Assembly: GCF_003946085.1 (NCBI RefSeq)
Contig: NZ_RHOB01000005.1
Coordinates: 17,716-57,715, forward strand
From: Levilactobacillus angrenensis
Lineage (GTDB): Bacteria > Bacillota > Bacilli > Lactobacillales > Lactobacillaceae
Reading direction: 5' to 3'
Length of the DNA: 40,000 nt
The translations under genes were made by a program, and so were the position numbers. The stretch's first letter is position 1, and the number at the start of each line of letters is the position of its first letter. The notes beneath the pieces were generated by a model. It saw only the letters and a program-made list of their open reading frames with translations, did not search any database and was not told where the DNA came from. This document shows, piece by piece, positions 1-9,540 of this stretch.

Positions 1-356
1 ACGACGTCAACTGGGCCGGCTTTTATTTGTATCAACCGGCAACCGACGATCTCATCTTAGGCCCCTTCCAAGGAAACGTGGCCTGTGTCCACATCGAAAA
101 TAACCGCGGGGTCTGTGGCACTGCCCTGGCAACGCAGACGGTGCAACGCGTCGCTGACGTCCATCAATTTGCCGGCCACATTGCCTGTGATTCCGCCAGC
201 AATTCCGAAGTCGTGGTGCCACTGATTTTAGCCAACGGCAACCCCCTGGGCGTCATGGATATTGATTCCCCTAGTCTGGACCGTTTCAGTGCCGCTGACC
301 AAGCCGTTTTAGAAGAATTTGCCCGCGTTTTGTTAAAACACGTTGACAACCAGTAG
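1..356 (+). CDS. GAF-domain protein, free methionine-(R)-sulfoxide reductase-like (5' end outside window)
   Basis: Frame open from base 3 (DVNWAGFYLYQP...) to TAG at 354-356. The blocks NWAGFYL, LGPFQG..AC, GVCG and HIACD..S.SE.VVPL are typical of the YebR/MsrC GAF family. Confidence 0.8.
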   Translation, partial: DVNWAGFYLYQPATDDLILGPFQGNVACVHIENNRGVCGTALATQTVQRVADVHQFAGHIACDSASNSEVVVPLILANGNPLGVMDIDSPSLDRFSAADQAVLEEFARVLLKHVDNQ

Positions 357-372
357 GCTTTCTGGTTATACT
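343..372 (+). promoter_or_regulatory. Putative sigma-A promoter of rpsD, followed by a ~180-nt untranslated leader (373-554)
   Basis: TTGACA at 343-348 and TATACT at 367-372 with an 18-nt spacer. A long leader before rpsD fits known S4 autoregulation in Firmicutes. The leader structure was not folded. Confidence 0.4.
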
Positions 373-554
373 GGTCGTTGTGTAAAATAATGCAGCGATA
401 AGTGGTAAGCTCGTCAACAGATTGTTGCCGTTACATTGGTTCAAGAAGTAACCTGCGGCTGCATAGGGTGAAACTTGCAAAGCAACCTGCACGAATACTA
501 AACTTATAAACAGCTTATTTTACTCCAAATAATATTTTATTGGAGGAACTATCT

Positions 555-1160
555 ATGTCTCGTTACACTGGCCCAAGCTGGCGTATTTCCCGTCGTTTAG
601 GGGTATCCCTTTCCGGCACTGGTAAAGAATTAAACCGTCGTCCTTACGCACCTGGTGATCATGGTCAAGGTCGTCGTCAAAAGTTATCTGAATACGGTAC
701 GCAATTGCGTGAAAAGCAAAAGCTCCGGTTCACTTACGGCATGACTGAACGTCAATTCTACAACTTGTTCAAGCGTGCCGGCAAGATCTCTGAAGGTACT
801 CATGGTACTAACTTCTTAATCTTGCTCGAACGTCGTCTGGACAACATGGTTTACCGTTTAGGTTTGGCAACGACTCGTCGTCAAGCTCGTCAATTGGTTA
901 ACCATGGTCACATCACTGTTGATGGCAAGCGCGTTGACATCCCTTCATACGAAGTCGAAGTTGGCCAAGTCATCTCTGTTCGTGAAAAGTCCAAGGACAT
1001 GGCCATCATCAAGGGCGCTGTTGAAGCCGTTGTTGGTCGTCCACAATACGTTCAATTCGACGCTGACAAGCTGGAAGGTTCTCTTACCCGCTTCCCTCAA
1101 CGTGAAGAATTAGACGCAGAACTTGACGAATCTCTTATCGTTGAATACTACAACCGTTAG
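555..1160 (+). CDS. rpsD: 30S ribosomal protein S4
   Basis: [16 protein letters not shown]... is the canonical S4 N-terminus, and an S4 RNA-binding domain follows ([27 protein letters not shown]). GGAGG lies 7 nt upstream of the ATG at 555. The TTG at 540 in the ORF track is upstream of that SD. Confidence 0.97.
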
Positions 1161-1419: not shown

Positions 1420-2271
1420 ATGAAACGAAAAAAGGTAAATAGAATCCTCATCAAGGATAGACATCAAATCAGCGGCTTCAAAGAGGAAACAGTGGCTGAA
1501 GCACTGTTAAACGTAAAAAGGATGTGGGAAACAATTGATAGCTTATCTGTTGATGAATTGAAAAACATTTTACCTCCTCAGCTTATATTAAACTCTCGTG
1601 TTGGAACACTACGGCCCGGTACTATTTATTACAGGGCCCGTATTACGGATGCTAAAAATTACCGAAATATTGGTTATTGGGATGCTTCTCAATTTTGGGA
1701 AGCGCCTAAAGAGTATGTCAAGCATTGGGGACGCTTAAATCGTCCCCATGAATCCGTCCTATACTTATCTAGTGATGTGTCGCAAACCTTTAAAGAAATA
1801 CGTTATCAAGTGAAAAAGAGTCGGCACTATGCGGTCGTTGTTAACTCATACAAGGTTACTAAACCTATCACGGCCACACAAATTGGATATTTTGGTAAAA
1901 GTGGAAGCGTAGCAGACATATATTCAAAAATGATTAGTGATATATTCTCCCTTCCTTCAGAAAAGTTTGGAGAAAACGTATATAAACTGTCAAACTTTTT
2001 GTCGAATTTCTATAATTTTGTTCCCAATAATGCAGCTGCATTTTTCTTCACGCCAGTACTAAATCCCCAAAATGATATTTTGAATTTAGCAATAAATCCA
2101 TCCGATGCACACAAATACTTTGAGTACAACGGTTCAATTGTAATCCCTAAATACAGAGAATCGGTTGACGGTAACATAACTGTAGTTTCAGCAAACGACG
2201 ATGCCTTCAATCTCCTAGATCCGTCAAAAAATAAAAGATGGATTTTTGATAACTTCAAAATTAAATATTAA
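1420..2271 (+). CDS. RES-domain protein (NAD+-targeting toxin family), orphan; no cognate Xre/DUF2384 antitoxin ORF
   Basis: RPGTIYYRAR, then HWGRLNRPHESVLYLSSDVSQTFKEI (the RES signature GR.N....vlYls....a..E), then a distal FFFTPV...NDILNLAINP block. AGGAG lies upstream. The segment is clearly AT-rich and on the opposite strand to the phage genes. Confidence 0.7.
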   Translation: MKRKKVNRILIKDRHQISGFKEETVAEALLNVKRMWETIDSLSVDELKNILPPQLILNSRVGTLRPGTIYYRARITDAKNYRNIGYWDASQFWEAPKEYVKHWGRLNRPHESVLYLSSDVSQTFKEIRYQVKKSRHYAVVVNSYKVTKPITATQIGYFGKSGSVADIYSKMISDIFSLPSEKFGENVYKLSNFLSNFYNFVPNNAAAFFFTPVLNPQNDILNLAINPSDAHKYFEYNGSIVIPKYRESVDGNITVVSANDDAFNLLDPSKNKRWIFDNFKIKY

Positions 2272-3565: not shown

Positions 3566-3961
3566 TTAATCATCCCCTGTGAATGCATAACTGATAATCC
3601 GACAAATCACCCCACCAGTCAGAACGGCCCCGGGACTGATTAACGCTCCCATCTCCATGTCATGAACCAGGAATCCCAAGAAAAATGACATCCACACAAA
3701 GACCAGGCAACCAATCATAATCGGCCGGGCATAGAACCAATGGAAGTCCCAGATTGAGTAGACCATCGCAAACGTACCGATGACCGCAATTAGAAAAATC
3801 GACACCGGATCATCAAGGAATCCCAGCATAGTGTGCGCTGGGGGCTTCAAGTCGAAGAAATTGACTTGGATGATGAAGACTACTGCGATAGCGTAAGTTT
3901 CGACTGCAGACCAGAACCAAAACTGGTTCTTCTTGTAGTGTCCGTATAGCTTTGAGTCCAT
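3566..3961 (-). CDS. Integral membrane protein (about 4 TM), function unknown
   Basis: 131 aa with four long hydrophobic stretches. It lies between XkdX and the holin. Confidence 0.6.
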   Translation of the reverse strand: MDSKLYGHYKKNQFWFWSAVETYAIAVVFIIQVNFFDLKPPAHTMLGFLDDPVSIFLIAVIGTFAMVYSIWDFHWFYARPIMIGCLVFVWMSFFLGFLVHDMEMGALISPGAVLTGGVICRIISYAFTGDD

Positions 3962-3975
3962 AAGAAAAGCACCCC

Positions 3976-4134
3976 CTATGCCTCAGCTGGCTTGTAGTCG
4001 GTGCCCGTGATTTCTTTATACTGGTCAGCGGTGATAGTCCCCAGCGGAACGTAGGCTGCCAGGAACTCATCTGTCATAAACATCTTGCCCCAGCTGTATT
4101 GCATCTTTAAAACATCAAAATTTGGATAAGTCAT
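3976..4134 (-). CDS. XkdX-family small phage protein (52 aa; below the ORF-track cutoff)
   Basis: My translation is MTYPNFDVLKMQYSWGKMFMTDEFLAAYVPLGTITADQYKEITGTDYKPAEA. The ITADQYKEITG motif is typical of XkdX. AGGAGG lies 8 nt upstream. Confidence 0.75.
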   Translation of the reverse strand: MTYPNFDVLKMQYSWGKMFMTDEFLAAYVPLGTITADQYKEITGTDYKPAEA

Positions 4135-4152
4135 GATAAATTCCTCCTATTT

Positions 4153-4599
4153 TTATTCTGTAGTAGCAGCTTGGCTTTGCGCCATTACTTTTGACATTTG
4201 AACTAACATTTGTTTCATTTGAGTCTGGTCGGCGGCCGATTCAGCTTGCGCTTGGCTTGACTGAATCAACATCTGCTGCAACTGTGTGATAGTAGCATTG
4301 GCGGCAGTCAACTGACTATCCATGGTACTGATAGTATCCGTAGCCGTTGTCAGTTGGCCGTTCACCACATCAATGACGTGTAGCAAGTGATCGACGCTTA
4401 AGTCAGCAAAATCATCGCTGGTCCGCTTGAATTGGCCGTCAATCACCAAATACTTCGTCCAATTTTCCAACAAGTAATTTAGCATCCCCGGCCGAATCCA
4501 CAGTTCTGTCAGGCCGTCTGCAGACACCGACTTGGGCTGCTCGTTTAGTGTTGAATTATCAGCATCGATGCTGACATACACTGGTACTGTTTTTGACAT
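4153..4599 (-). CDS. Hypothetical tail-associated protein with a Q/A/T-rich C-terminal coiled coil (XkdW position)
   Basis: The start was moved to MSKTVPVY (AAGGAG 8 nt upstream, inside the end of the preceding gene). The 24-aa extension in the ORF track overlaps that gene. Confidence 0.65.
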   Translation of the reverse strand: MSKTVPVYVSIDADNSTLNEQPKSVSADGLTELWIRPGMLNYLLENWTKYLVIDGQFKRTSDDFADLSVDHLLHVIDVVNGQLTTATDTISTMDSQLTAANATITQLQQMLIQSSQAQAESAADQTQMKQMLVQMSKVMAQSQAATTE

Positions 4600-4603
4600 A
4601 AAA

Positions 4604-5029
4604 TCACTCCTTAATTTTTTCGATATTGATTTTAACTGAACCGGACATACCGATATAAAAGTTCTGAGCATCGACTCTATCTGTACTGCTGTACGACACC
4701 GCGCTAATTGTCATACCATCATCGCTAATCATTAATCTAACACCACCTATAGTGGCACCATAATTTTGCATACAGTTTCCAACGAAGTTATTTGCCCCAG
4801 CAAAATTAACAAACCTAAAGCCATCAGGTGGATTAATTTTGAAAGACATCGTTGACGTGGAAACCATACCAAAAATTTTCATTTGAGTATTATCCACTTG
4901 AGACAACAGCAATCCACTACTAATTGTTCCGACAAAATTTGTATACGGTTTCCACTGATTTATCCGGTCATAAAGCACCTGGTTACCCAGGGTAATCTTG
5001 GATACATCATCGCTAATTGCTAATCCCAT
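4604..5029 (-). CDS. Tail-fibre-region paralogue 4 (141 aa)
   Basis: N-terminal DVSKITLGNQVLY and central INPPDGFRF motifs are shared with the other three paralogues. GGAGG lies 9 nt upstream. Confidence 0.75.
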   Translation of the reverse strand: MGLAISDDVSKITLGNQVLYDRINQWKPYTNFVGTISSGLLLSQVDNTQMKIFGMVSTSTMSFKINPPDGFRFVNFAGANNFVGNCMQNYGATIGGVRLMISDDGMTISAVSYSSTDRVDAQNFYIGMSGSVKINIEKIKE

Positions 5030-5077
5030 AAGTGTTCGCCTCCAATCAAAGACGAACCCTTATGAGTTAGTGAAATT

Positions 5078-5131
5078 CTATAGGGTTGCCCCCCCCCGAA
5101 CATTTACGGTGCTTGTGAATTTATCGTACAT
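5078..5131 (-). CDS. Mini-ORF A (17 codons, MYDKFTSTVNVRGGATL) containing the G9 tract
   Basis: AAGGAGGA lies 7 nt upstream of the ATG, inside the end of the upstream gene. It is homologous in layout to mini-ORFs B and C. Confidence 0.5.
   Translation of the reverse strand: MYDKFTSTVNVRGGATL
5089..5097 (-). repeat. Homopolymer: C9 on the plus strand = G9 on the coding strand
   Basis: Counted directly: ...gttg ccccccccc gaac... Confidence 0.95.
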
Positions 5132-5133
5132 GG

Positions 5134-5628
5134 TTAGTCCTCCTTGATTACATTGAATTGGATATCTGCAGAAAATAATACATTAGCAGCTCCAGGCCCG
5201 CCATATGAGTTGTTGAGCACCCATGTTTGGCTACCTTGATTTGCCGCATAGTTATTTGAGATTTGCCCATAACACTTATTTCCATCGTATTTCATCGGAA
5301 CAGCATGTCCTCCTCCCGCTCCTGAATCACCAATAGTAAAAGTTGCTGGGTTATTAGACGCGAAGCTATACCCATTTGGCAACTCTAATGCCAGTCGCCA
5401 TTTTTTAATGCCCTCACCAGATGGGATTGTAACCGCGCGGATGCCTTTAAAAGCTGCAATACCGGTTTGAGGGTCAAATTTCATAATTTCCATACCGACA
5501 AAATCCGTTCCCTTTGTCCCGTTGTCTGGAAGCTCAATCCACGTAGTATTCGGGTCTTGCCGCTCCCACAGAGTCTCACTGCCAAGGGTGATTTTCGCTA
5601 CATCGCTAGACATGCTAACCTCACTCAT
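5134..5628 (-). CDS. Tail-fibre-region paralogue 3 (164 aa from MSEVSMSSDVAKITLG)
   Basis: Motifs DVAKITLGSETLW and LELPNGYSF. The start at 5628 gives the same N-terminal length as its paralogues, with GGTGGTGA as the SD. The ATG at 5613 is an alternative start. Confidence 0.75.
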   Translation of the reverse strand: MSEVSMSSDVAKITLGSETLWERQDPNTTWIELPDNGTKGTDFVGMEIMKFDPQTGIAAFKGIRAVTIPSGEGIKKWRLALELPNGYSFASNNPATFTIGDSGAGGGHAVPMKYDGNKCYGQISNNYAANQGSQTWVLNNSYGGPGAANVLFSADIQFNVIKED

Positions 5629-5661
5629 GGCAGTCACCACCAGTCTGAGTAGAACCAGCGG

Positions 5662-5718
5662 TTAGAGGGTGGTTTCTACCCCCCCCCCCGACATTTTAAG
5701 CGTGTTAACTAGTTTCAT
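5662..5718 (-). CDS. Mini-ORF B (18 codons, MKLVNTLKMSGGGVETTL) containing the G11 tract
   Basis: AAAGGA lies 8 nt upstream. An in-frame ATG at 5727 has no spacer to the SD. Confidence 0.45.
   Translation of the reverse strand: MKLVNTLKMSGGGVETTL
5679..5689 (-). repeat. Homopolymer: C11 on the plus strand = G11 on the coding strand
   Basis: Counted directly: ...ttcta ccccccccccc gaca... Confidence 0.95.
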
Positions 5719-5732
5719 TTGTCTCATCCTTT

Positions 5733-6233
5733 CTAGTCCGGTATTACAGACGTTGTAGTCCAGCAATGATATCCTGTGTAGTTATCATCTAAATCGCTCA
5801 TAAAAATAATTATTCTTCCTGCAGGGTAAACTGAAGCTGAGTTCATTTTCCAATTGAATTTTGCACTAATTGAATCACCTGACATGGTGAAAGACAAATC
5901 ACCATAGTAGGATCCAGTCCCATACATAATTCCAGATGTGGCATTACTAGTTTTGCTTCCGAGTGGGAAAGTACTGTCAGTCTTGCTAAACCGATACCCA
6001 TCTGGCAGCGTTAAAAGAATCTTGTTCCATGTACCTTGACTATATGTCCATGTGATATCAGCAGCTCCAATAAAACTAGTAACGCCTGTCGATGCATCAT
6101 AGTGCATCAAAATTGGCGTGCCCGAAAAGTCTGCATTGACCATACATGGTAGCCACACATCTTCCGCATTCACAAACTCGTTTCCGGCCAGTGTCAATCG
6201 TGATATCTTGTCTCCGCCTACTGTGAGTGTCAT
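5733..6233 (-). CDS. Tail-fibre-region paralogue 2 (166 aa)
   Basis: Motifs DKISRLTLAGNEF and LTLPDGYRF. GAGGTGA lies 6 nt upstream. Confidence 0.75.
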   Translation of the reverse strand: MTLTVGGDKISRLTLAGNEFVNAEDVWLPCMVNADFSGTPILMHYDASTGVTSFIGAADITWTYSQGTWNKILLTLPDGYRFSKTDSTFPLGSKTSNATSGIMYGTGSYYGDLSFTMSGDSISAKFNWKMNSASVYPAGRIIIFMSDLDDNYTGYHCWTTTSVIPD

Positions 6234-6266
6234 AAGGCATCACCTCGGTGGTTCAGACGAGTATTT

Positions 6267-6308
6267 CTACCCCCCCCCCATGATAAATGGGGTTAATTTA
6301 TTAGTCAT
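6267..6308 (-). CDS. Mini-ORF C (13 codons, MTNKLTPFIMGGG) containing the G10 tract
   Basis: TAGGAGGT lies 6 nt upstream of the ATG and overlaps the stop of the upstream paralogue. A TAG follows the G run directly. Confidence 0.5.
   Translation of the reverse strand: MTNKLTPFIMGGG
6270..6279 (-). repeat. Homopolymer: C10 on the plus strand = G10 on the coding strand
   Basis: Counted directly: ...ttcta cccccccccc atga... Confidence 0.95.
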
Positions 6309-6319
6309 GGTATTACCTC

Positions 6320-6847
6320 CTATACTTTCTCAAGTCCGATGATTGCAGGACCACCAAAATTATCGTCTGTAGCAGAGACATGGTTGATGTCATTACCGTT
6401 AAAGTTAATCAACACACGTATTTTTCCATAAAGATTACTGTTATGTTGAGCTCGCACAACTGTGACATTTCCATCTGCAAAAGAAATATATCCATAGCCA
6501 CGCTGAACGGCTTGATTGGATCCTGATGTTGTATACATACTCGTATAAACTAGAATTGTCGGTCCATAAGATGGTCCAACTTGCCAATTATGATCTAGAA
6601 AAGTATACCCGTTGGGTGGATTTAGCAACTTAAAAGACGGCGTGTACAAGCTATCCGATGTTGCTTGGGTCAAATAGCCTAAGCTTCCAACTAATCCTGC
6701 TGTTCCATCGCCGTAATCCTTAAAAAACACATTGCCGCTCACCCCATCAGGTAGCTTCAGCGGAATCCATCCATCAGAATTCTGCCAGACAGTGTCGCCG
6801 CCCAACGTAATCTTGCTGACGCTATTTGGTACTTCCAATTCAGCCAT
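6320..6847 (-). CDS. Tail-fibre-region paralogue 1 (175 aa from MAELEV)
   Basis: Motifs SVSKITLGGDTVW and LLNPPNGYTF. The start overlaps the fibre stop (TAATG), with GGGGAGGTG upstream. Confidence 0.8.
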   Translation of the reverse strand: MAELEVPNSVSKITLGGDTVWQNSDGWIPLKLPDGVSGNVFFKDYGDGTAGLVGSLGYLTQATSDSLYTPSFKLLNPPNGYTFLDHNWQVGPSYGPTILVYTSMYTTSGSNQAVQRGYGYISFADGNVTVVRAQHNSNLYGKIRVLINFNGNDINHVSATDDNFGGPAIIGLEKV

Positions 6848-7773
6848 TATGCTGCACCTCCCCATGGAGCCGGTTCAGCGGCTGGGCGCGTGCCATCCTT
6901 GTGTACGATAATTGTCGTTGGATGCGCTGCCACATAGGCCGTGACTGCATCCGCATCATCATCGGCATAGACGGTAGTCACGCCTAGCACGCTGGCCCCA
7001 TCAACGCTTAAATTACCCGGGTCGAAGTCAACCTTGCTACCCTTGCCTGCTTCGCTCACCGTGACTACATGATTCTCATCGGCAGGCGTGATAACCTGCT
7101 TGTCCACAGTGATAGTGCCGTCGGTATTATCCCGCACATAAGCCCCATCAGCTGTCTCTCGGGCTACGTAAGGACTCCCATTGGCATTGGTCGGGTCTTT
7201 CAAGAACTTCCACAGAGCCGCAATCTCAGCATCCTTATCTGAATACATCAGTGTAGCTGGCAGGATTACTTTGTGGGCTTCAATCGCCTTATCCACGTAT
7301 TCCTTGGTTGCCATCCCGGCTGGGTTGATAGTCACCTCGACATTCTCGGCCTTGCCGACAATCATGTAGACGATCATGCCGAACTGCATCAAAACTTTAT
7401 CGTTAAAGTCCGGAATAAACTCCGGCTTAATGGCCTTGACCACGGCATAGAGAACTTCTGACTTACTGTCACCGGTCTCAGTAGCATACAGGCCAACCGC
7501 ACCGATTGAATAGCTCTCAGTAAGTCCTGAATTTTCAAACGTGACGTCAGTCCCCACAATGGCGCCGTTGCCATCAGGAGAACTCAGCCGGTCGTTGATG
7601 GTACCTGTTTGCACCTCATTTGGTAGTGCCGTCAACTCAGTCACATCCACATCCGACAAGTCATCAGCTGTGGAAGCTACCCGGGTAATCGTAAAGCTAG
7701 TCTTTCCGTTGGCTGCCAAACTAGATAGCCGCAACCCTTCATTCGTTAACTCAGACGCATCATACTTACTCAT
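6847..7773 (-). CDS. Tail fibre protein with a P2 gpH-like N-terminal (tail-collar fibre, DUF3751-like) domain
   Basis: LTNEGLRLSSLAANGK..FTITRVA...LPNEVQ...IGAVGLYA...EVTINPAGMATKEYVDKAIEAH parallels the P2 gpH N-terminus (…TIDTTTVMATQDYVDDKIAEH). Confidence 0.8.
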   Translation of the reverse strand: MSKYDASELTNEGLRLSSLAANGKTSFTITRVASTADDLSDVDVTELTALPNEVQTGTINDRLSSPDGNGAIVGTDVTFENSGLTESYSIGAVGLYATETGDSKSEVLYAVVKAIKPEFIPDFNDKVLMQFGMIVYMIVGKAENVEVTINPAGMATKEYVDKAIEAHKVILPATLMYSDKDAEIAALWKFLKDPTNANGSPYVARETADGAYVRDNTDGTITVDKQVITPADENHVVTVSEAGKGSKVDFDPGNLSVDGASVLGVTTVYADDDADAVTAYVAAHPTTIIVHKDGTRPAAEPAPWGGAA

Positions 7774-8399
7774 CGATTCTCATCCCCTCCCTTAATTTTT
7801 GCTCTTACATAAATCTGTGGTTTAATTGCTCCAAAGTACTGCAGTTGCTGCACCACTGCGGTTCGCCGCGTCTTTGGCATAATCGTCGCCTTAGTATAGG
7901 TCTGCGTCAGACTACCAATAAACACGGCCTGTTCCACCGATACATTAGATTCAGTAGTAATCTGATACGTCTGGTCCGCCGGCAGCATTACGTTCAGCAA
8001 ATACCGCAGTCGCTTGACTTGCTCCGGGGTGATTTCGTCGGCCTGACTCATCGTCGTCACATGGCTGCGAATGGCATCCTGGTCTACTGTGGCCGGAATA
8101 TCCATCGACGCTAGTAGCTCCCGAAAATACCAAATCGTGATTGGCCGCGGGGGCAGCAAGCGCACCATGATATCGTAGCGACGCGACTCTAGCGACTGGC
8201 TTAAATCCGTTGGCAACCCTAGTTGATTCTCGAAAATGCTGAGTCCATCGCTGTCAGCGGTGCTGACAAACTGGTTCAGTAAGATTCGAGTAGCCATATC
8301 ATCGAAGCTGTCAGCCTGTTTCTGTTCCGCTTCCATCAACCGTTGCATCTCACGGACACCATCGTAGTAATCCGGCAGGTAATCTTTTAGCTTAACCAT
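7770..8399 (-). CDS. Baseplate/tail protein, XkdU/YmfQ-like (DUF2313)
   Basis: LKDYLPDYYDGVREMQRLMEAEQ...LSIFENQLGL is the typical DUF2313 N-terminus. The start at MVKLKDY overlaps the upstream stop (ATGGTTAA). Confidence 0.8.
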   Translation of the reverse strand: MVKLKDYLPDYYDGVREMQRLMEAEQKQADSFDDMATRILLNQFVSTADSDGLSIFENQLGLPTDLSQSLESRRYDIMVRLLPPRPITIWYFRELLASMDIPATVDQDAIRSHVTTMSQADEITPEQVKRLRYLLNVMLPADQTYQITTESNVSVEQAVFIGSLTQTYTKATIMPKTRRTAVVQQLQYFGAIKPQIYVRAKIKGGDENR

Positions 8400-9540
8400 G
8401 AAGCACCACCTCACCAACCACCGGAAGCTCGGAAACTTCGCCGCTGAAAGTCATCACTACATCACTCTCGGCCCCGTTCAGAGTTGGGAGAGTGGCGTTA
8501 ATCACACCCTCGATTCGCATAATCTCCGAAAGAATCTGCGAACGGTATACCGTCAGCGAATAGCCCCGGCCGGTCACCTTGTCAACATCATCCCAAGCTT
8601 CACGCCGCTTGGCGAAGTAAGACTCAATGCCAGCTTTAATCTGGGCTTCGACGCTTGATACAGTAGCTTGCGAGTCCGTCGTTACCGTTGACTCAATATC
8701 AATTTGGACCTCTGTGGGAGCCACCACAGTGACCGCATGGCCGACTGGAGCCAGACCATAGCCTTGGCCCTCAAACTCGATTGGATCAATAGTTTTCTTG
8801 ACCTGGCCAATTAGTGAAGTGCTCGCCGCCCGAAGCTCATTGTTTACAATGACTAGCTTGACCGTGCCGCCACCTTGCCAAGTCGGATAGACTTGACCGG
8901 CCCCCACATCACTAATCTTAGACAGCATATCCAAGTAATCCGCAACGTTGCCGCCGTACGCGTTGTAAGCATCCGGTGATAGCAGCCGCTCCCGTAAGTG
9001 GTCATCGGTCTCGCTATCCTTGGCAGGTACCGTCACAGCGATAATCTCGGCCCAACTCAGGGCGTCGTTCGGCGTCACCGGCAGGATTTGACCTAGATAC
9101 CCGTTAGCCGTGGTCCCGACCTCATCAGCTGTCAGAATAGCCGTCTGGTCATCGTTGACGCTGGTGACGTGGTAGAAAATGGGTTCCTCACCCACGCTAG
9201 CGAATTGATCACCCAACTCCACATTACCAATCGCCGCCCCATTACTATCCAAAAACTTTGCTAGTACTTGCGCTGTGGTGGCAGCCTGCCGGACTGTCCC
9301 ACGTTCCGGAGCCCGATAGTCCAGGAACTCACCCGGAGCAGTCTTCGTATAGGCCGCCCGAACCACAGTTGCCATTTGTAGCGACTCTTCAGCTAGTTGG
9401 GTAGCTGCGGGGCCCAATGCATCATAGATGATAGAGCCTTGTCGCTTATCCACGTCATCACTCACATCATCCAGCATGGAGTCCATAAAGTAATCGAAGT
9501 CATGTGACTCCAATTCTTGCGCCAGTAATTCAGGATTCAC
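8392..9540 (-). CDS. Baseplate J-like protein (XkdT-like)
   Basis: DYFMDSMLDDVSDDVDKRQGSIIYDALGPAATQLAE is a Baseplate_J-type N-terminus. GTG start with GAGGTGA 6 nt upstream. Confidence 0.85.
   Translation of the reverse strand: MNPELLAQELESHDFDYFMDSMLDDVSDDVDKRQGSIIYDALGPAATQLAEESLQMATVVRAAYTKTAPGEFLDYRAPERGTVRQAATTAQVLAKFLDSNGAAIGNVELGDQFASVGEEPIFYHVTSVNDDQTAILTADEVGTTANGYLGQILPVTPNDALSWAEIIAVTVPAKDSETDDHLRERLLSPDAYNAYGGNVADYLDMLSKISDVGAGQVYPTWQGGGTVKLVIVNNELRAASTSLIGQVKKTIDPIEFEGQGYGLAPVGHAVTVVAPTEVQIDIESTVTTDSQATVSSVEAQIKAGIESYFAKRREAWDDVDKVTGRGYSLTVYRSQILSEIMRIEGVINATLPTLNGAESDVVMTFSGEVSELPVVGEVVLHG

What the first reader, a model, noticed from the sequence alone, without database searches (positions are those of the whole stretch)
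4604..6865. Tandem array of four divergent paralogous ~140-175 aa genes after a short P2 gpH-like fibre gene
All four proteins share two motifs.
- An N-terminal [SA]-[KR]-[IL]-T-L-[GA] strand: SKITLGG, SRLTLAG, AKITLGS, SKITLGN.
- A central P-[PD/N]-G-[YF]-x-F motif: NPPNGYTF, LPDGYRF, LPNGYSF, NPPDGFRF.
Otherwise they are only weakly similar, so the duplications are old and have been maintained.
The fibre itself is short (308 aa). It has a collar-type N-terminal domain and only ~140 aa beyond it.
The array sits where P2- and Mu-type phages carry fibre chaperones or alternative fibre tips, and where PBSX has XkdW. It is noticeably more AT-rich than the flanking baseplate genes.
These could be alternative receptor-binding tips or adaptors, or fibre chaperones. 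I could not match them to a family I know.
Basis: partly seen in the sequence, partly recalled or inferred. Interest (0 to 1): 0.65.

Follow-up and report, generated by a model that had tools for sequence, protein, structure and literature searches.

The report
Phase-variable phage fibre-tip gene array
A dormant virus in a Levilactobacillus-type genome carries the knob of its tail fibre as four separate, divergent genes, and three of them sit behind unstable runs of G bases that appear built to switch each knob on or off at random, so one virus could make particles with different host-binding equipment.

Summary
Four minus-strand genes (A-D) follow a 308-aa fibre gene in a PBSX-like myovirus prophage. 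They are true but distant paralogues and are more AT-rich than the baseplate genes.

They match no Pfam, PHROG or NCBIfam family. An exhaustive profile search shows that their fold is the extreme C-terminal head of longer tail fibres in related phages. Those phages lack the array.

Between close relatives the heads are hypervariable (23-38% identity where the baseplate is over 90% identical). The fibre C-terminus and the heads' N-termini stay conserved, vary together, and move together between unrelated baseplates.

New finding: each of the three inter-gene spacers holds a G9-G11 tract, the only G/C runs of 6 or more in 40 kb. Each tract lies inside a leader mini-ORF.
- In 31 of 31 spacers from about 11 phages, exactly one tract-length class (mod 3) makes the leader stop on the next head's start codon. 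The other two classes stop early.
- Near-identical contigs differ only at these tracts.

Best reading: free-standing receptor-binding fibre tips, three of them gated by slipped-strand switches acting through translational coupling. In the window all three gated genes (B, C, D) are in the OFF frame.

The parts
6847..7773 (-). Tail fibre gene (308 aa), headless type
   Evidence: ORF. Residues 1-177 match tail-fibre PHROGs. It sits directly after the Baseplate_J and Mu Gp48-like genes.
6850..7137 (-). Conserved C-terminal module of the fibre (last ~95 aa; TPADxxHVV...LSVDG neck plus a ~45-aa cap). Proposed docking platform.
   Evidence: It is 59-86% identical in phages whose baseplate J is only 21-25% identical. 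In these data it occurs only in fibres that are followed by a head array. Its first half aligns with the pre-head segment of fused fibres.
6320..6847 (-). Head gene A (slot 1, 175 aa). No leader; its start overlaps the fibre stop (TAATG).
   Evidence: AF2 gives pLDDT 88.7, all beta. Best fold matches are viral attachment-protein heads.
6267..6308 (-). Leader mini-ORF 1 (MTNKLTPFIMGGG*) containing a G10 tract (C-run 6270-6279 on the + strand). Its SD overlaps the stop codon of A.
   Evidence: G10 is OFF (TAG 36 nt before the ATG of B). G9 or G12 would end on ATGA at the start of B.
5733..6233 (-). Head gene B (slot 2, 166 aa)
   Evidence: AF2 gives pLDDT 77.
5662..5718 (-). Leader mini-ORF 2 (MKLVNTLKMSGGGVETTL*) containing a G11 tract (C-run 5679-5689 on the + strand)
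   Evidence: G11 is OFF (TAA 36 nt before the ATG of C). G9 or G12 would stop 5 nt past the ATG of C.
5134..5628 (-). Head gene C (slot 3, 164 aa from the ATG at 5628)
5078..5131 (-). Leader mini-ORF 3 (MYDKFTSTVNVRGGATL*) containing a G9 tract (C-run 5089-5097 on the + strand)
   Evidence: G9 is OFF (TAG 51 nt before the ATG of D). G8 or G11 would stop 7 nt past the ATG of D.
5029..5062 (-). Hairpin that buries the Shine-Dalgarno sequence and the A of the AUG of gene D
   Evidence: A 14-bp helix is 90.8% paired in 7 phages, against 45-59% when the partners are slid. Three pairs show compensatory changes. The covariation score is reached by 1 of 500 shuffles. The spacer folds with z = -3.2.
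4604..5029 (-). Head gene D (slot 4, 141 aa)
4153..4599 (-). Coiled-coil protein E (148 aa) at the XkdW position. It travels with the module.
   Evidence: It is 65-74% identical in L001, L004 and L009. It also follows fused-head fibres directly. No family match.
3976..4134 (-). XkdX-family gene; end of the host-recognition module, start of the lysis genes
   Evidence: PF09693 at 1.4e-9; TIGR01669 at 2.5e-10

Best explanation
A-D are free-standing versions of the distal head (receptor-binding knob) of the tail fibre.

**How the proteins fit together.** In related phages this head is fused to the fibre's C-terminus. Here the fibre ends in a conserved neck-plus-cap module, and the heads are separate gene products. 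Each head keeps the neck strand ([IL]-T-[LV]-G-G) at its N-terminus. I infer that they dock through it on the fibre's conserved C-terminal module. The block made of the fibre C-terminus, the heads, E and XkdX behaves as a mobile host-recognition module.

**How expression is arranged.** A is translationally coupled to the fibre, so it is always made. B, C and D are each preceded by a leader mini-ORF that contains a hypermutable poly-G tract.
- In one tract-length class (mod 3), ribosomes read the leader through the spacer, which includes an SD-masking hairpin before D. They terminate on or within 7 nt of the head's start codon and so couple its translation (ON).
- In the other two classes they stop 22-57 nt upstream (OFF or low).

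Slippage during replication would then give up to 8 combinations of tips in the progeny of one prophage, without polar effects on the lysis genes downstream.

**Shown:** the homology to fibre heads, the co-occurrence and co-variation, the frame architecture of the tracts, and the tract polymorphism.
**Inferred:** presence in the virion, docking on the fibre, receptor binding, and actual ON/OFF switching.
For: **Head identity**
- The exhaustive HMM search finds 123 representatives. Most are stand-alone proteins of 135-180 aa. In P0074, P0093, P0098 (= phage JNU_P2 ORF25), P0073, P0127, P0128 and P0131 the domain is the extreme C-terminus of a 386-718-aa protein with a tail-fibre N-terminus.
- For P0038 and P0084 the homology extends back into the N-terminal strand.
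- Fused-head fibres are followed directly by E and XkdX, with no array.
- AF2 of A gives pLDDT 88.7. The top Foldseek PDB hits are almost all viral attachment heads: reovirus sigma1 (probability 0.92-0.98) and adenovirus fibre heads.

**Hypervariability and linkage**
- Window against L009: baseplate J 93% and fibre 95% identical, but head bodies only 23-38% and head N-termini 57-80%.
- Window against L001: baseplate J 25%, but fibre C-terminus 86% and head N-termini 68-91%.
- Window against L012: baseplate J 75%, but fibre C-terminus 33% and head N-termini 35-53%.
- Every fibre with this C-terminal module is followed by 3-4 heads.
- A second head type (ending ...YDELV) also occurs both stand-alone and fused.

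**Switch**
- The three tracts are the only G/C runs of 6 or more in 40 kb; the iid expectation for runs of 9 or more is 0.19.
- Every array locus has G7-G14 tracts in each spacer. Loci without an array have none.
- In 31 of 31 spacers exactly one length class puts the leader stop at -2 to +7 of the head ATG (usually ATGA). The other two classes stop at -22 to -57.
- The early stops are kept through stop-to-stop substitutions among TAG, TAA and TGA.
- L005 and L006 are 100% identical over 8143 nt but carry G9 and G11. L015 carries G10.
- L033 and L034 differ by one indel in 4982 nt. It lies in a G7/G8 tract inside the slot-1 ORF and truncates the protein from 146 to 107 aa.
- L033 (G7, G7: OFF, OFF) against L037 (G8, G8: ON, ON).
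- The SD-masking hairpin before D shows covariation.
Against: - There is no proteomic or functional evidence that any stand-alone head is in a virion or binds a receptor.
- The fold matches are not significant (best E 5e-3, TM 0.30-0.52).
- Docking on the fibre rests on co-occurrence and on five pairwise comparisons. No multimer model was possible.
- B and C have their own reasonable SD sequences. Their predicted SD-masking helices are short (4-6 bp), lack compensatory changes and fold no better than shuffles. OFF may therefore only mean lower expression.
- Homopolymer lengths in assemblies are prone to error, and several contigs end at a tract.
- One phage sampled in 8 related runs showed no tract variation.
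- The fraction ON (10 of 31) equals the 1/3 expected by chance, so it does not discriminate.
Confidence: 0.6

Rival explanations
1. The heads are what the best explanation says, but the poly-G tracts are not heritable ON/OFF switches. RNA polymerase or ribosomes slip on the G run (G_GGG_GGG). A fixed minority of ribosomes then enters the coupling frame, which sets a low, constant ratio of B, C and D to the fibre and A.
For: - Long homopolymers support transcriptional and translational slippage (general knowledge).
- A small conserved hairpin forms between the 3' end of the tract and a downstream CCC.
- One phage shows identical tract lengths (G8, G14, G11) in 8 samples.
- The three-frame architecture fits this model equally well.
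Against: - Tract length differs between otherwise identical or near-identical DNA (G9, G10, G11; G7, G8) and puts homologous spacers in different frames.
- A fixed-ratio device would be expected to hold one length class. Instead ON and OFF classes occur at roughly the chance proportion of one third to two thirds.
Confidence: 0.2
2. A-D are fibre assembly chaperones or transient 'caps' that derive from a head domain. They are not receptor-binding parts of the mature virion.
For: - Their position between the fibre and XkdX is where P2, Mu and lambda-type phages carry Tfa-type chaperones.
- They are small, and no function has been shown.
- Chaperone caps that stay on fibre tips are described for other phages (PMC10579305, listed).
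Against: - No match to any chaperone, Tfa, gp38 or XkdW profile.
- The domain is the terminal domain of the mature-length fibre in relatives, and those relatives carry no such extra genes.
- The fibre C-terminus is conserved while the small proteins are hypervariable. A chaperone should follow the tip it folds.
- Four different chaperones for one short fibre are hard to justify.
Confidence: 0.1
3. The array is a decaying or non-functional remnant of duplicated fibre ends in a defective prophage. The poly-G tracts are mutational debris or assembly artefacts.
For: In the window all three leaders are in an OFF frame. The family is rare: 19 clusters at 90% identity among 5.8 billion proteins, all labelled 'hypothetical'.
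Against: - All four ORFs are intact.
- The same slots, leaders, tracts, early stops and overlapping stop-start arrangement are kept in about 11 diverged phages, including through frame-preserving indels and stop-to-stop substitutions.
- The tracts occur only in spacers, plus one head ORF, and nowhere else in 8-16 kb loci.
- The flanking baseplate and lysis genes are intact.
Confidence: 0.05

Closest known systems
Fused-head tail fibres of Levilactobacillus brevis phages (e.g. JNU_P2 ORF25, QHJ74841.1 = P0098; metagenomic P0074, P0127)
   Same: They share the head domain (HMM E 2.6e-15 for JNU_P2 ORF25), the neck strand before it, the fibre N-terminal family, and the position after baseplate J and gp48 and before E and XkdX.
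   Different: There the head is the C-terminus of a single 386-718-aa polypeptide, with no array and no poly-G tracts. All are annotated as hypothetical, and none has been characterised.
Lactococcal phage TP901-1/Tuc2009 baseplate: BppU adaptor plus stand-alone ~160-aa receptor-binding protein BppL (and BppA) (from my own knowledge)
   Same: A ~300-aa adaptor or fibre whose C-terminal domain would hold separately encoded RBPs of about 160 aa. Each of those RBPs has an N-terminal attachment segment and a beta-sandwich head.
   Different: No sequence or profile relationship: BppL_N (PF18338) and all other Pfam models are negative for A-D and for the fibre. TP901-1 is a siphovirus with a single RBP gene, rather than 3-4 paralogues, and it has no switch.
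Campylobacter Fletchervirus phages with hypermutable polyG tracts in receptor-binding protein genes (Sorensen et al. 2021, Cell Rep 35:109214; cited in PMC10877375)
   Same: A phage-encoded poly-G tract creates subpopulations with different host-recognition proteins.
   Different: As I recall, those tracts lie inside the ORFs and act by frameshift truncation. Here the window's tracts lie in separate leader mini-ORFs and would act through translational coupling. There are three independent switches in one operon, in a Gram-positive prophage. An in-ORF tract of the Campylobacter kind occurs only in a relative (L033/L034 slot 1).
Invertible tail-fibre segments of Mu (G segment) and P1 (C segment), and DGR-diversified fibres of Bordetella phage BPP-1 (from my own knowledge)
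   Same: Stochastic, heritable alternation of the phage's receptor-binding end within one genome.
   Different: Those systems use a site-specific invertase or a reverse transcriptase. No convincing inverted repeats flank the array, and I saw no recombinase or reverse-transcriptase gene next to it in the ORF list.
Helicobacter pylori tlpB mRNA leader G-repeat, whose length sets post-transcriptional control by the sRNA RepG (from my own knowledge)
   Same: A variable homopolymeric G run in an mRNA leader tunes translation of the downstream gene rather than its reading frame.
   Different: That mechanism is sRNA pairing with the G-repeat. Here it is the reading frame of a translated leader ORF, and where that ORF terminates.
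PBSX-type tail end (XkdT-XkdU-XkdV-XkdW-XkdX)
   Same: The order baseplate J, gp48-like, fibre, small proteins, XkdX, holin and lysin is shared.
   Different: Nothing matches XkdW. Four head genes with switches are inserted between the fibre and the XkdW-position protein E.

Membership tests
Distal head domain of Levilactobacillus-phage tail fibres (unnamed family; no Pfam or PHROG model) | Significant profile similarity across the head core (W...G...P-x-G-[YF]-x-F beta-sandwich) | tested here: met
   A profile built from A-D and their relatives hits the C-termini of fibre proteins: P0074 at 8e-9, P0073 at 6e-9, P0098 (= JNU_P2 ORF25) at 6e-7 library-wide and 2.6e-15 locally.
Distal head domain of Levilactobacillus-phage tail fibres (unnamed family; no Pfam or PHROG model) | Head preceded by a neck strand L-T-[VL]-x-G-G | tested here: met
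   The stand-alone N-termini (SKITLGG and similar) align with 'LTVSGGKTVAT' in the fused fibres P0038 and P0084. The profile match starts at profile position 7-9.
Distal head domain of Levilactobacillus-phage tail fibres (unnamed family; no Pfam or PHROG model) | Domain is covalently the C-terminus of the fibre polypeptide | tested here: not met
   A-D are separate ORFs with their own start codons. The fibre ends in a different 45-aa cap. This makes them a split variant of the family.
Distal head domain of Levilactobacillus-phage tail fibres (unnamed family; no Pfam or PHROG model) | Present in virions and binds the host receptor | not testable with these tools
   The only indirect support is that phage 521B ORF80 and ORF81 were detected in virions by mass spectrometry (PMC6563214). 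They share only the neck and carry another head type.
TP901-1-type BppU/BppL baseplate | BppL N-terminal domain (PF18338) in the RBP; BppU-family adaptor | tested here: not met
   No Pfam hit for A-D or for the fibre at E <= 1. The architecture is only analogous.
Tail-fibre assembly chaperones (Tfa/Caudo_TAP, gp38, XkdW) | Profile match to a chaperone family | tested here: not met
   Pfam, PHROGs and NCBIfam are all negative.
Tail-fibre assembly chaperones (Tfa/Caudo_TAP, gp38, XkdW) | Chaperone co-varies with the variable fibre tip that it folds | tested here: not met
   The fibre C-terminus is 83-86% identical where the bodies of the small proteins are 23-42% identical.
Simple-sequence-repeat contingency (phase-variable) locus | Homopolymer of 7 or more placed so that its length changes expression | tested here: met
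   G7-G14 tracts lie inside leader ORFs. In 31 of 31 spacers one length class ends on the head start codon and two classes stop early.
Simple-sequence-repeat contingency (phase-variable) locus | Tracts over-represented relative to composition | tested here: met
   They are the only three G/C runs of 6 or more in 40 kb, against an expectation of 0.19 for runs of 9 or more. No such tracts occur in loci without an array.
Simple-sequence-repeat contingency (phase-variable) locus | Tract length polymorphic among otherwise identical genomes | tested here: met
   L005, L006 and L015 carry G9, G11 and G10 at 99.95-100% identity. L033 and L034 carry G7 and G8 as their only indel. Assembly error cannot be excluded. 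One phage was invariant in 8 samples.
Simple-sequence-repeat contingency (phase-variable) locus | Measured reversible switching with a phenotype | not testable with these tools
   This needs deep sequencing of clonal lineages and expression assays.
Campylobacter-phage type polyG RBP genes | Tract lies inside the RBP reading frame | tested here: not met
   In the window all three tracts lie in separate leader ORFs. The feature is met only for slot 1 of L033/L034.
Reovirus sigma1 / adenovirus fibre-knob fold | Significant structural superposition | tested here: inconclusive
   The top hits are consistently viral attachment heads, but the best is E 5e-3 with TM 0.30-0.36 (0.52 normalised to the target for the raptor adenovirus head). 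The model of B gave nothing below E 0.29.
PBSX-like contractile-tail module | Baseplate J, gp48/XkdU-like and XkdX genes in order | tested here: met
   PF04865 at 7e-41, PF10076 at 5e-20, PF09693 at 1.4e-9. XkdW is not found.

The most novel reading that the evidence does not exclude
One prophage encodes a combinatorial host-range generator with two parts.
- A shared fibre adaptor on which up to four different free-standing receptor-binding heads dock.
- Three independent slipped-strand switches of a kind I could not find described: a poly-G tract inside a translated leader ORF, whose reading frame decides whether ribosomes run into, unmask and re-initiate at the next head gene.

Each burst would then contain up to eight particle types. 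The whole module, from the fibre C-terminus through the heads, leaders and E, moves as a cassette between unrelated myovirus baseplates.
Probability: 0.45. Interest if true: 0.85.

Novelty: new variant of a known kind. Interest (0 to 1): 0.72.

Why it matters
**For phage biology.** Host range is usually treated as fixed by one or two receptor-binding proteins. A temperate phage of a food- and beer-relevant lactic acid bacterium that carries several detachable tips and gates them stochastically would be a bet-hedging device against receptor variation. It would be comparable in effect to Mu's G inversion or to DGRs, but it would use neither a recombinase nor a reverse transcriptase.

**For gene regulation.** The proposed switch is a homopolymer in a leader ORF that controls translational coupling. 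It would extend the known ways in which simple repeats regulate genes, and it would explain how expression can be varied in mid-operon without polar effects on essential lysis genes.

**In practice.**
- It defines an un-annotated family of about 100 representative clusters as fibre heads.
- It gives a sequence rule for calling ON and OFF states.
- It offers modular heads and a conserved docking end for engineering Lactobacillaceae phage host range.

Tried and rejected
**Family and structure searches that found nothing useful**
- Pfam, PHROGs and NCBIfam on A-D gave no real hits. The only matches were weak chance ones: DUF4920, InlK_D2 and phrog_29899.
- The PDB sequence search with the family profile and with the fibre found nothing.
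- Megablast of the 8-kb module, and tblastn of A and of B, against GenBank phages gave no match.
A deeper alignment improved the model but not the significance.
- Rfam found no family in 3900-7900.

**Leads that turned out to be noise**
- Long multi-repeat proteins that hit the profile turned out to be a mix of SdrD_B, DUF11 and MucBP_2 adhesins. They share only the 'LP-x-G-Y-x-F' strand motif, so I dismissed them as motif-level matches.

**Alternative mechanisms considered**
- Invertible-segment model: only short, imperfect inverted repeats, none of which flank a head gene sensibly.
- Poly-G as a promoter spacer (Bordetella fim type): promoter-like sites are no more frequent than in shuffles, and no consistent -35/-10 pair brackets the tracts (reading).
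- Fibre-A fusion by frameshifting: not needed, because A has its own ATG in a TAATG overlap.

**Searches limited by the data**
- The search for related loci with the whole-family alignment failed for lack of a conserved 7-mer. The fibre C-terminal alignment worked instead.
- DNA-pattern scans for the spacer found only four more contigs.

Full report
**What is there.**
The low-coordinate end of the window is the tail and lysis end of a prophage on the minus strand, next to rpsD (540-1160). In the direction of transcription the genes are:
- Baseplate_J (8392-9540, PF04865 at 7e-41)
- Mu Gp48-like (7770-8417, 5e-20)
- a 308-aa fibre (6847-7773)
- four small ORFs, A (6320-6847), B (5733-6233), C (5134-5628) and D (4604-5029)
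- a coiled-coil protein E (4153-4599)
- XkdX (3976-4134, PF09693 at 1.4e-9)
- membrane proteins, a holin and an Amidase_2 lysin

The array is more AT-rich (GC 0.38-0.47) than the fibre and baseplate genes (0.49-0.56). A near-identical prophage sits at the same rpsD site in Levilactobacillus brevis CP032931 (L009), so the window most likely comes from that genus.

The four proteins are 23-30% identical. Pairwise BLASTP E-values run from 4e-9 to 1e-4, and B-D is joined only through the others. A starts at MAELEV, and its ATG overlaps the fibre stop as TAATG. Only residues 1-177 of the fibre match tail-fibre PHROGs. Nothing supports the label 'P2 gpH-like'.

**What the proteins are.**
No Pfam, PHROG or NCBIfam model matches A-D, and neither does any PDB sequence. 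The word-indexed search found only 19 clusters among 5.8 billion proteins. The few that carry a name are 'hypothetical protein [Levilactobacillus brevis]'.

The exhaustive profile search found 123 representatives (54 at E <= 1e-10). About 97 of them are stand-alone proteins of 135-180 aa with the same N-terminal strand.

The decisive result is that in P0074, P0093, P0098, P0073, P0127, P0128 and P0131 the domain is the extreme C-terminus of a 386-718-aa protein. Most of these have an N-terminus that belongs to the same tail-fibre PHROGs as the window's fibre. For P0074, phrog_12519 scores 1e-41, and the protein is 40% identical to the window fibre over 179 aa. P0098 is ORF25 of L. brevis phage JNU_P2, annotated as hypothetical.

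In these fused fibres the head follows a neck, '...LTVNGGKSVATSDDLKS..W.P'. For P0038 and P0084 this neck aligns with the stand-alone N-termini, 'SKITLGGDTVW...W.P'. Fused-head fibres are followed directly by the E-like protein and XkdX, with no array. A-D are therefore split-off copies of the distal head of the fibre.

**Structure.**
AF2 of B with 20 sequences gave pLDDT 77 and an all-beta fold. Foldseek found nothing significant for it. AF2 of A with 91 sequences gave pLDDT 88.7 and pTM 0.81. Its best PDB matches are almost all viral attachment-protein heads:
- reovirus sigma1 (E 5e-3 to 8e-3, probability 0.90-0.98)
- siadenovirus, atadenovirus and raptor adenovirus fibre heads
- a Klebsiella tailspike

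None of these reaches E 1e-3, and the TM-scores are 0.3-0.5. I take this as soft support only.

**Conserved array, variable heads, linked fibre end.**
Three to four slots after the fibre recur in L001, L004, L005, L007, L009, L012, L013, L016, L025 and L033/L037. The N-terminal ~35 residues are specific to each slot and conserved. The head bodies are swapped or highly diverged:

| Window compared with | Baseplate J | Fibre C-terminus (last 93 aa) | Head N-termini | Head bodies |
|---|---|---|---|---|
| L009 | 93% | 83% | 57-80% | 23-38% |
| L001 | 25% | 86% | 68-91% | 26-78% |
| L012 | 75% | 33% | 35-53% | 34-44% |

Three further points come from these comparisons.
- Against L009 the first 170 residues of the fibre are 95% identical. 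Against L001 protein E is 65% identical.
- The fibre C-terminal module tracks the head N-termini, not the baseplate. The block from the fibre C-terminus through the heads to E moves between unrelated baseplates.
- In these data, every fibre that carries this module is followed by an array.

The first half of the module aligns weakly with the pre-head segment of fused fibres (P0038, E 3e-4 in a small database).

A second head type, ending '...YDELV', fills slot 4 in L001 and L012. It matches the C-terminus of phage ATCCB ORF70 end to end (E 4e-4), so the slots accept different head cassettes.

This pattern is what receptor-binding modules show. It is the opposite of what a tip-specific chaperone should show.

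**The unexpected part: poly-G leaders.**
Each of the three spacers contains a homopolymeric G run on the coding strand: G10 between A and B, G11 between B and C, and G9 between C and D. These are the only G/C runs of 6 or more in the whole 40-kb window, where 0.19 runs of 9 or more are expected by chance. Every array-bearing locus has G7-G14 tracts at the homologous places and none elsewhere in 8-16 kb. Loci with fused-head fibres have none.

Each tract lies in a mini-ORF with its own Shine-Dalgarno sequence. The conserved leader peptides are M..KLT[PL]F[IT]MGGG, MKLVNTLKMSGGG and M[YH].KFT.SVNVRGG.

In 31 of 31 spacers from about 11 phages, exactly one tract-length class (mod 3) lets the leader run on and stop at -2 to +7 of the next head's ATG, usually as ATGA. 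The other two classes stop 22-57 nt upstream. The early stops are maintained by stop-to-stop substitutions among TAG, TAA and TGA, and the indels in the spacers preserve the arrangement.

The states differ between phages:

| Phage | Leader states, in spacer order |
|---|---|
| Window | OFF, OFF, OFF |
| L001 | OFF, OFF, OFF |
| L005 | ON, ON, ON |
| L009 | ON, ON, OFF |
| L012 | ON, OFF, OFF |
| L033 | OFF, OFF |
| L037 | ON, ON |

In all, 10 of 31 leaders are ON.

Near-identical contigs differ at the tracts.
- L005 and L006 are 100% identical over 8143 nt but carry G9 and G11. L015 carries G10.
- L033 and L034 differ by a single indel in 4982 nt. It is a G7/G8 tract inside the slot-1 ORF and truncates the protein from 146 to 107 aa.
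- Several contigs end at a tract (L006, L016, L021).
- Against this, one phage sampled in 8 related runs was invariant, and homopolymer lengths in assemblies can be wrong.

**RNA structure.**
In the spacer between C and D, a 14-bp helix buries the SD and the A of the AUG of D. It is 90.8% paired in 7 phages, against 45-59% for slid controls. Three pairs show compensatory changes, and the covariation score is reached by 1 of 500 shuffles. The window's spacer folds with z = -3.2. In the ON frame the leader is translated straight through this helix.

For the other two spacers the predicted SD-masking helices are only 4-6 bp. They show no compensatory changes and fold no better than shuffles. The OFF state of B and C may therefore be leaky. 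No Rfam family matches.

**Mechanism proposed.**
The fibre and A are made together through the TAATG overlap. The leader of B starts on the stop codon of A (TAGGAGG), and the same pattern continues down the operon.

Replication slippage changes the length of a tract. In one length class out of three, ribosomes translating the leader reach the head's start site, unmask it and re-initiate. A translational switch of this kind would leave transcription of E, XkdX and the lysis genes untouched.

The heads would dock through their conserved N-terminal hairpin on the fibre's conserved C-terminal module. That hairpin has lower confidence in both models, as expected for a segment that needs a partner. 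Which head binds where, and whether the heads form homotrimers or heterotrimers, is unknown.

**What is known.**
- Phage-encoded poly-G switching of receptor-binding proteins is described for Campylobacter Fletchervirus phages (Sorensen et al. 2021, cited in PMC10877375). As I recall, those tracts lie inside the ORFs.
- The published surveys of L. brevis phages and prophages list hypothetical structural proteins but describe no such array or tracts. I searched them by term and did not read them in full (PMC6563214 and PMC6805780).
- Their mass spectrometry did detect phage 521B ORF80 and ORF81 in virions. These proteins share the neck but carry another head type.
- Literature searches for a homopolymer in a leader ORF that controls translational coupling found no precedent. 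The library is incomplete, so this is not proof of novelty.

**Verdict.**
The added finding of leader-ORF poly-G switches makes this a new variant of known kinds: split receptor-binding proteins combined with simple-repeat phase variation. Everything beyond sequence architecture remains inferred, namely presence in the virion, docking, receptor binding and switching.

Noticed in passing
L033 2762-2768 / L034 1239-1246 (slot-1 head gene): In a related prophage a poly-G tract lies inside the slot-1 head ORF. G7 gives an intact 146-aa protein. G8, in a contig that is 99.98% identical, truncates it to 107 aa. This is a classical in-frame contingency tract alongside the leader-type tracts.
   Followed up: partly
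L001 8601-9023; L012 8912-9346; L020 1763-4465 (phage ATCCB ORF70): Slot 4 of some arrays carries a different head type that lacks P-x-G-Y-x-F and ends in ...YDELV. The same head is the C-terminus of the ATCCB 'BppU-like baseplate protein', of phage Lb ORF61 and of 521B ORF80/81. Heads are therefore exchangeable cassettes.
   Followed up: partly
window 4153-4599 (-): Coiled-coil protein E follows the array and also follows fused-head fibres. A protein at the same position after the fibre-like gene of phage ATCCB (ORF69) is annotated 'attachment protein'. E matches no family and sits where PBSX has XkdW.
   Followed up: partly
L019 (phage 521B ORF80 and ORF81, MK504443.1 44045-46438): Two tandem genes annotated 'putative capsid protein' carry the fibre shaft repeats, the neck (GGVDVATAADLKS) and a C-terminal head. 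They were found in virions by mass spectrometry (PMC6563214). They look like fibre or RBP proteins that have been mis-annotated.
   Followed up: partly
window 1420-2271 (+): A 283-aa ORF of low GC (0.36-0.39) lies between rpsD and the prophage lysin, on the opposite strand to the phage genes. It has no Pfam or PADLOC match. It may be prophage-end cargo.
   Followed up: partly
window 1-1160 and L009 12707-13981: The prophage abuts rpsD and a GAF-domain gene, both in the window and in L. brevis CP032931. This suggests a shared integration site. No att sites were looked for.
   Followed up: no
window 5024-5133, 5623-5732, 6228-6322 (-): The 3' end of each G tract can pair with a conserved C-rich segment just downstream (GGGGUAGAAAUACCC, GGGGUAGAAACCACCC, GGGGCAACCC). 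Each pairing forms a small hairpin that is kept in all loci. Its role is unknown; a pause or a slippage stimulator are possibilities.
   Followed up: partly
proteins P0047, P0061, P0064, P0065, P0069, P0082, P0099: Very long cell-surface repeat proteins (those scanned carry SdrD_B, DUF11 or MucBP_2 domains) score against the head profile through many weak repeats of an 'LP-x-G-Y-x-F' strand. This is probably a convergent beta-sandwich motif rather than homology.
   Followed up: partly
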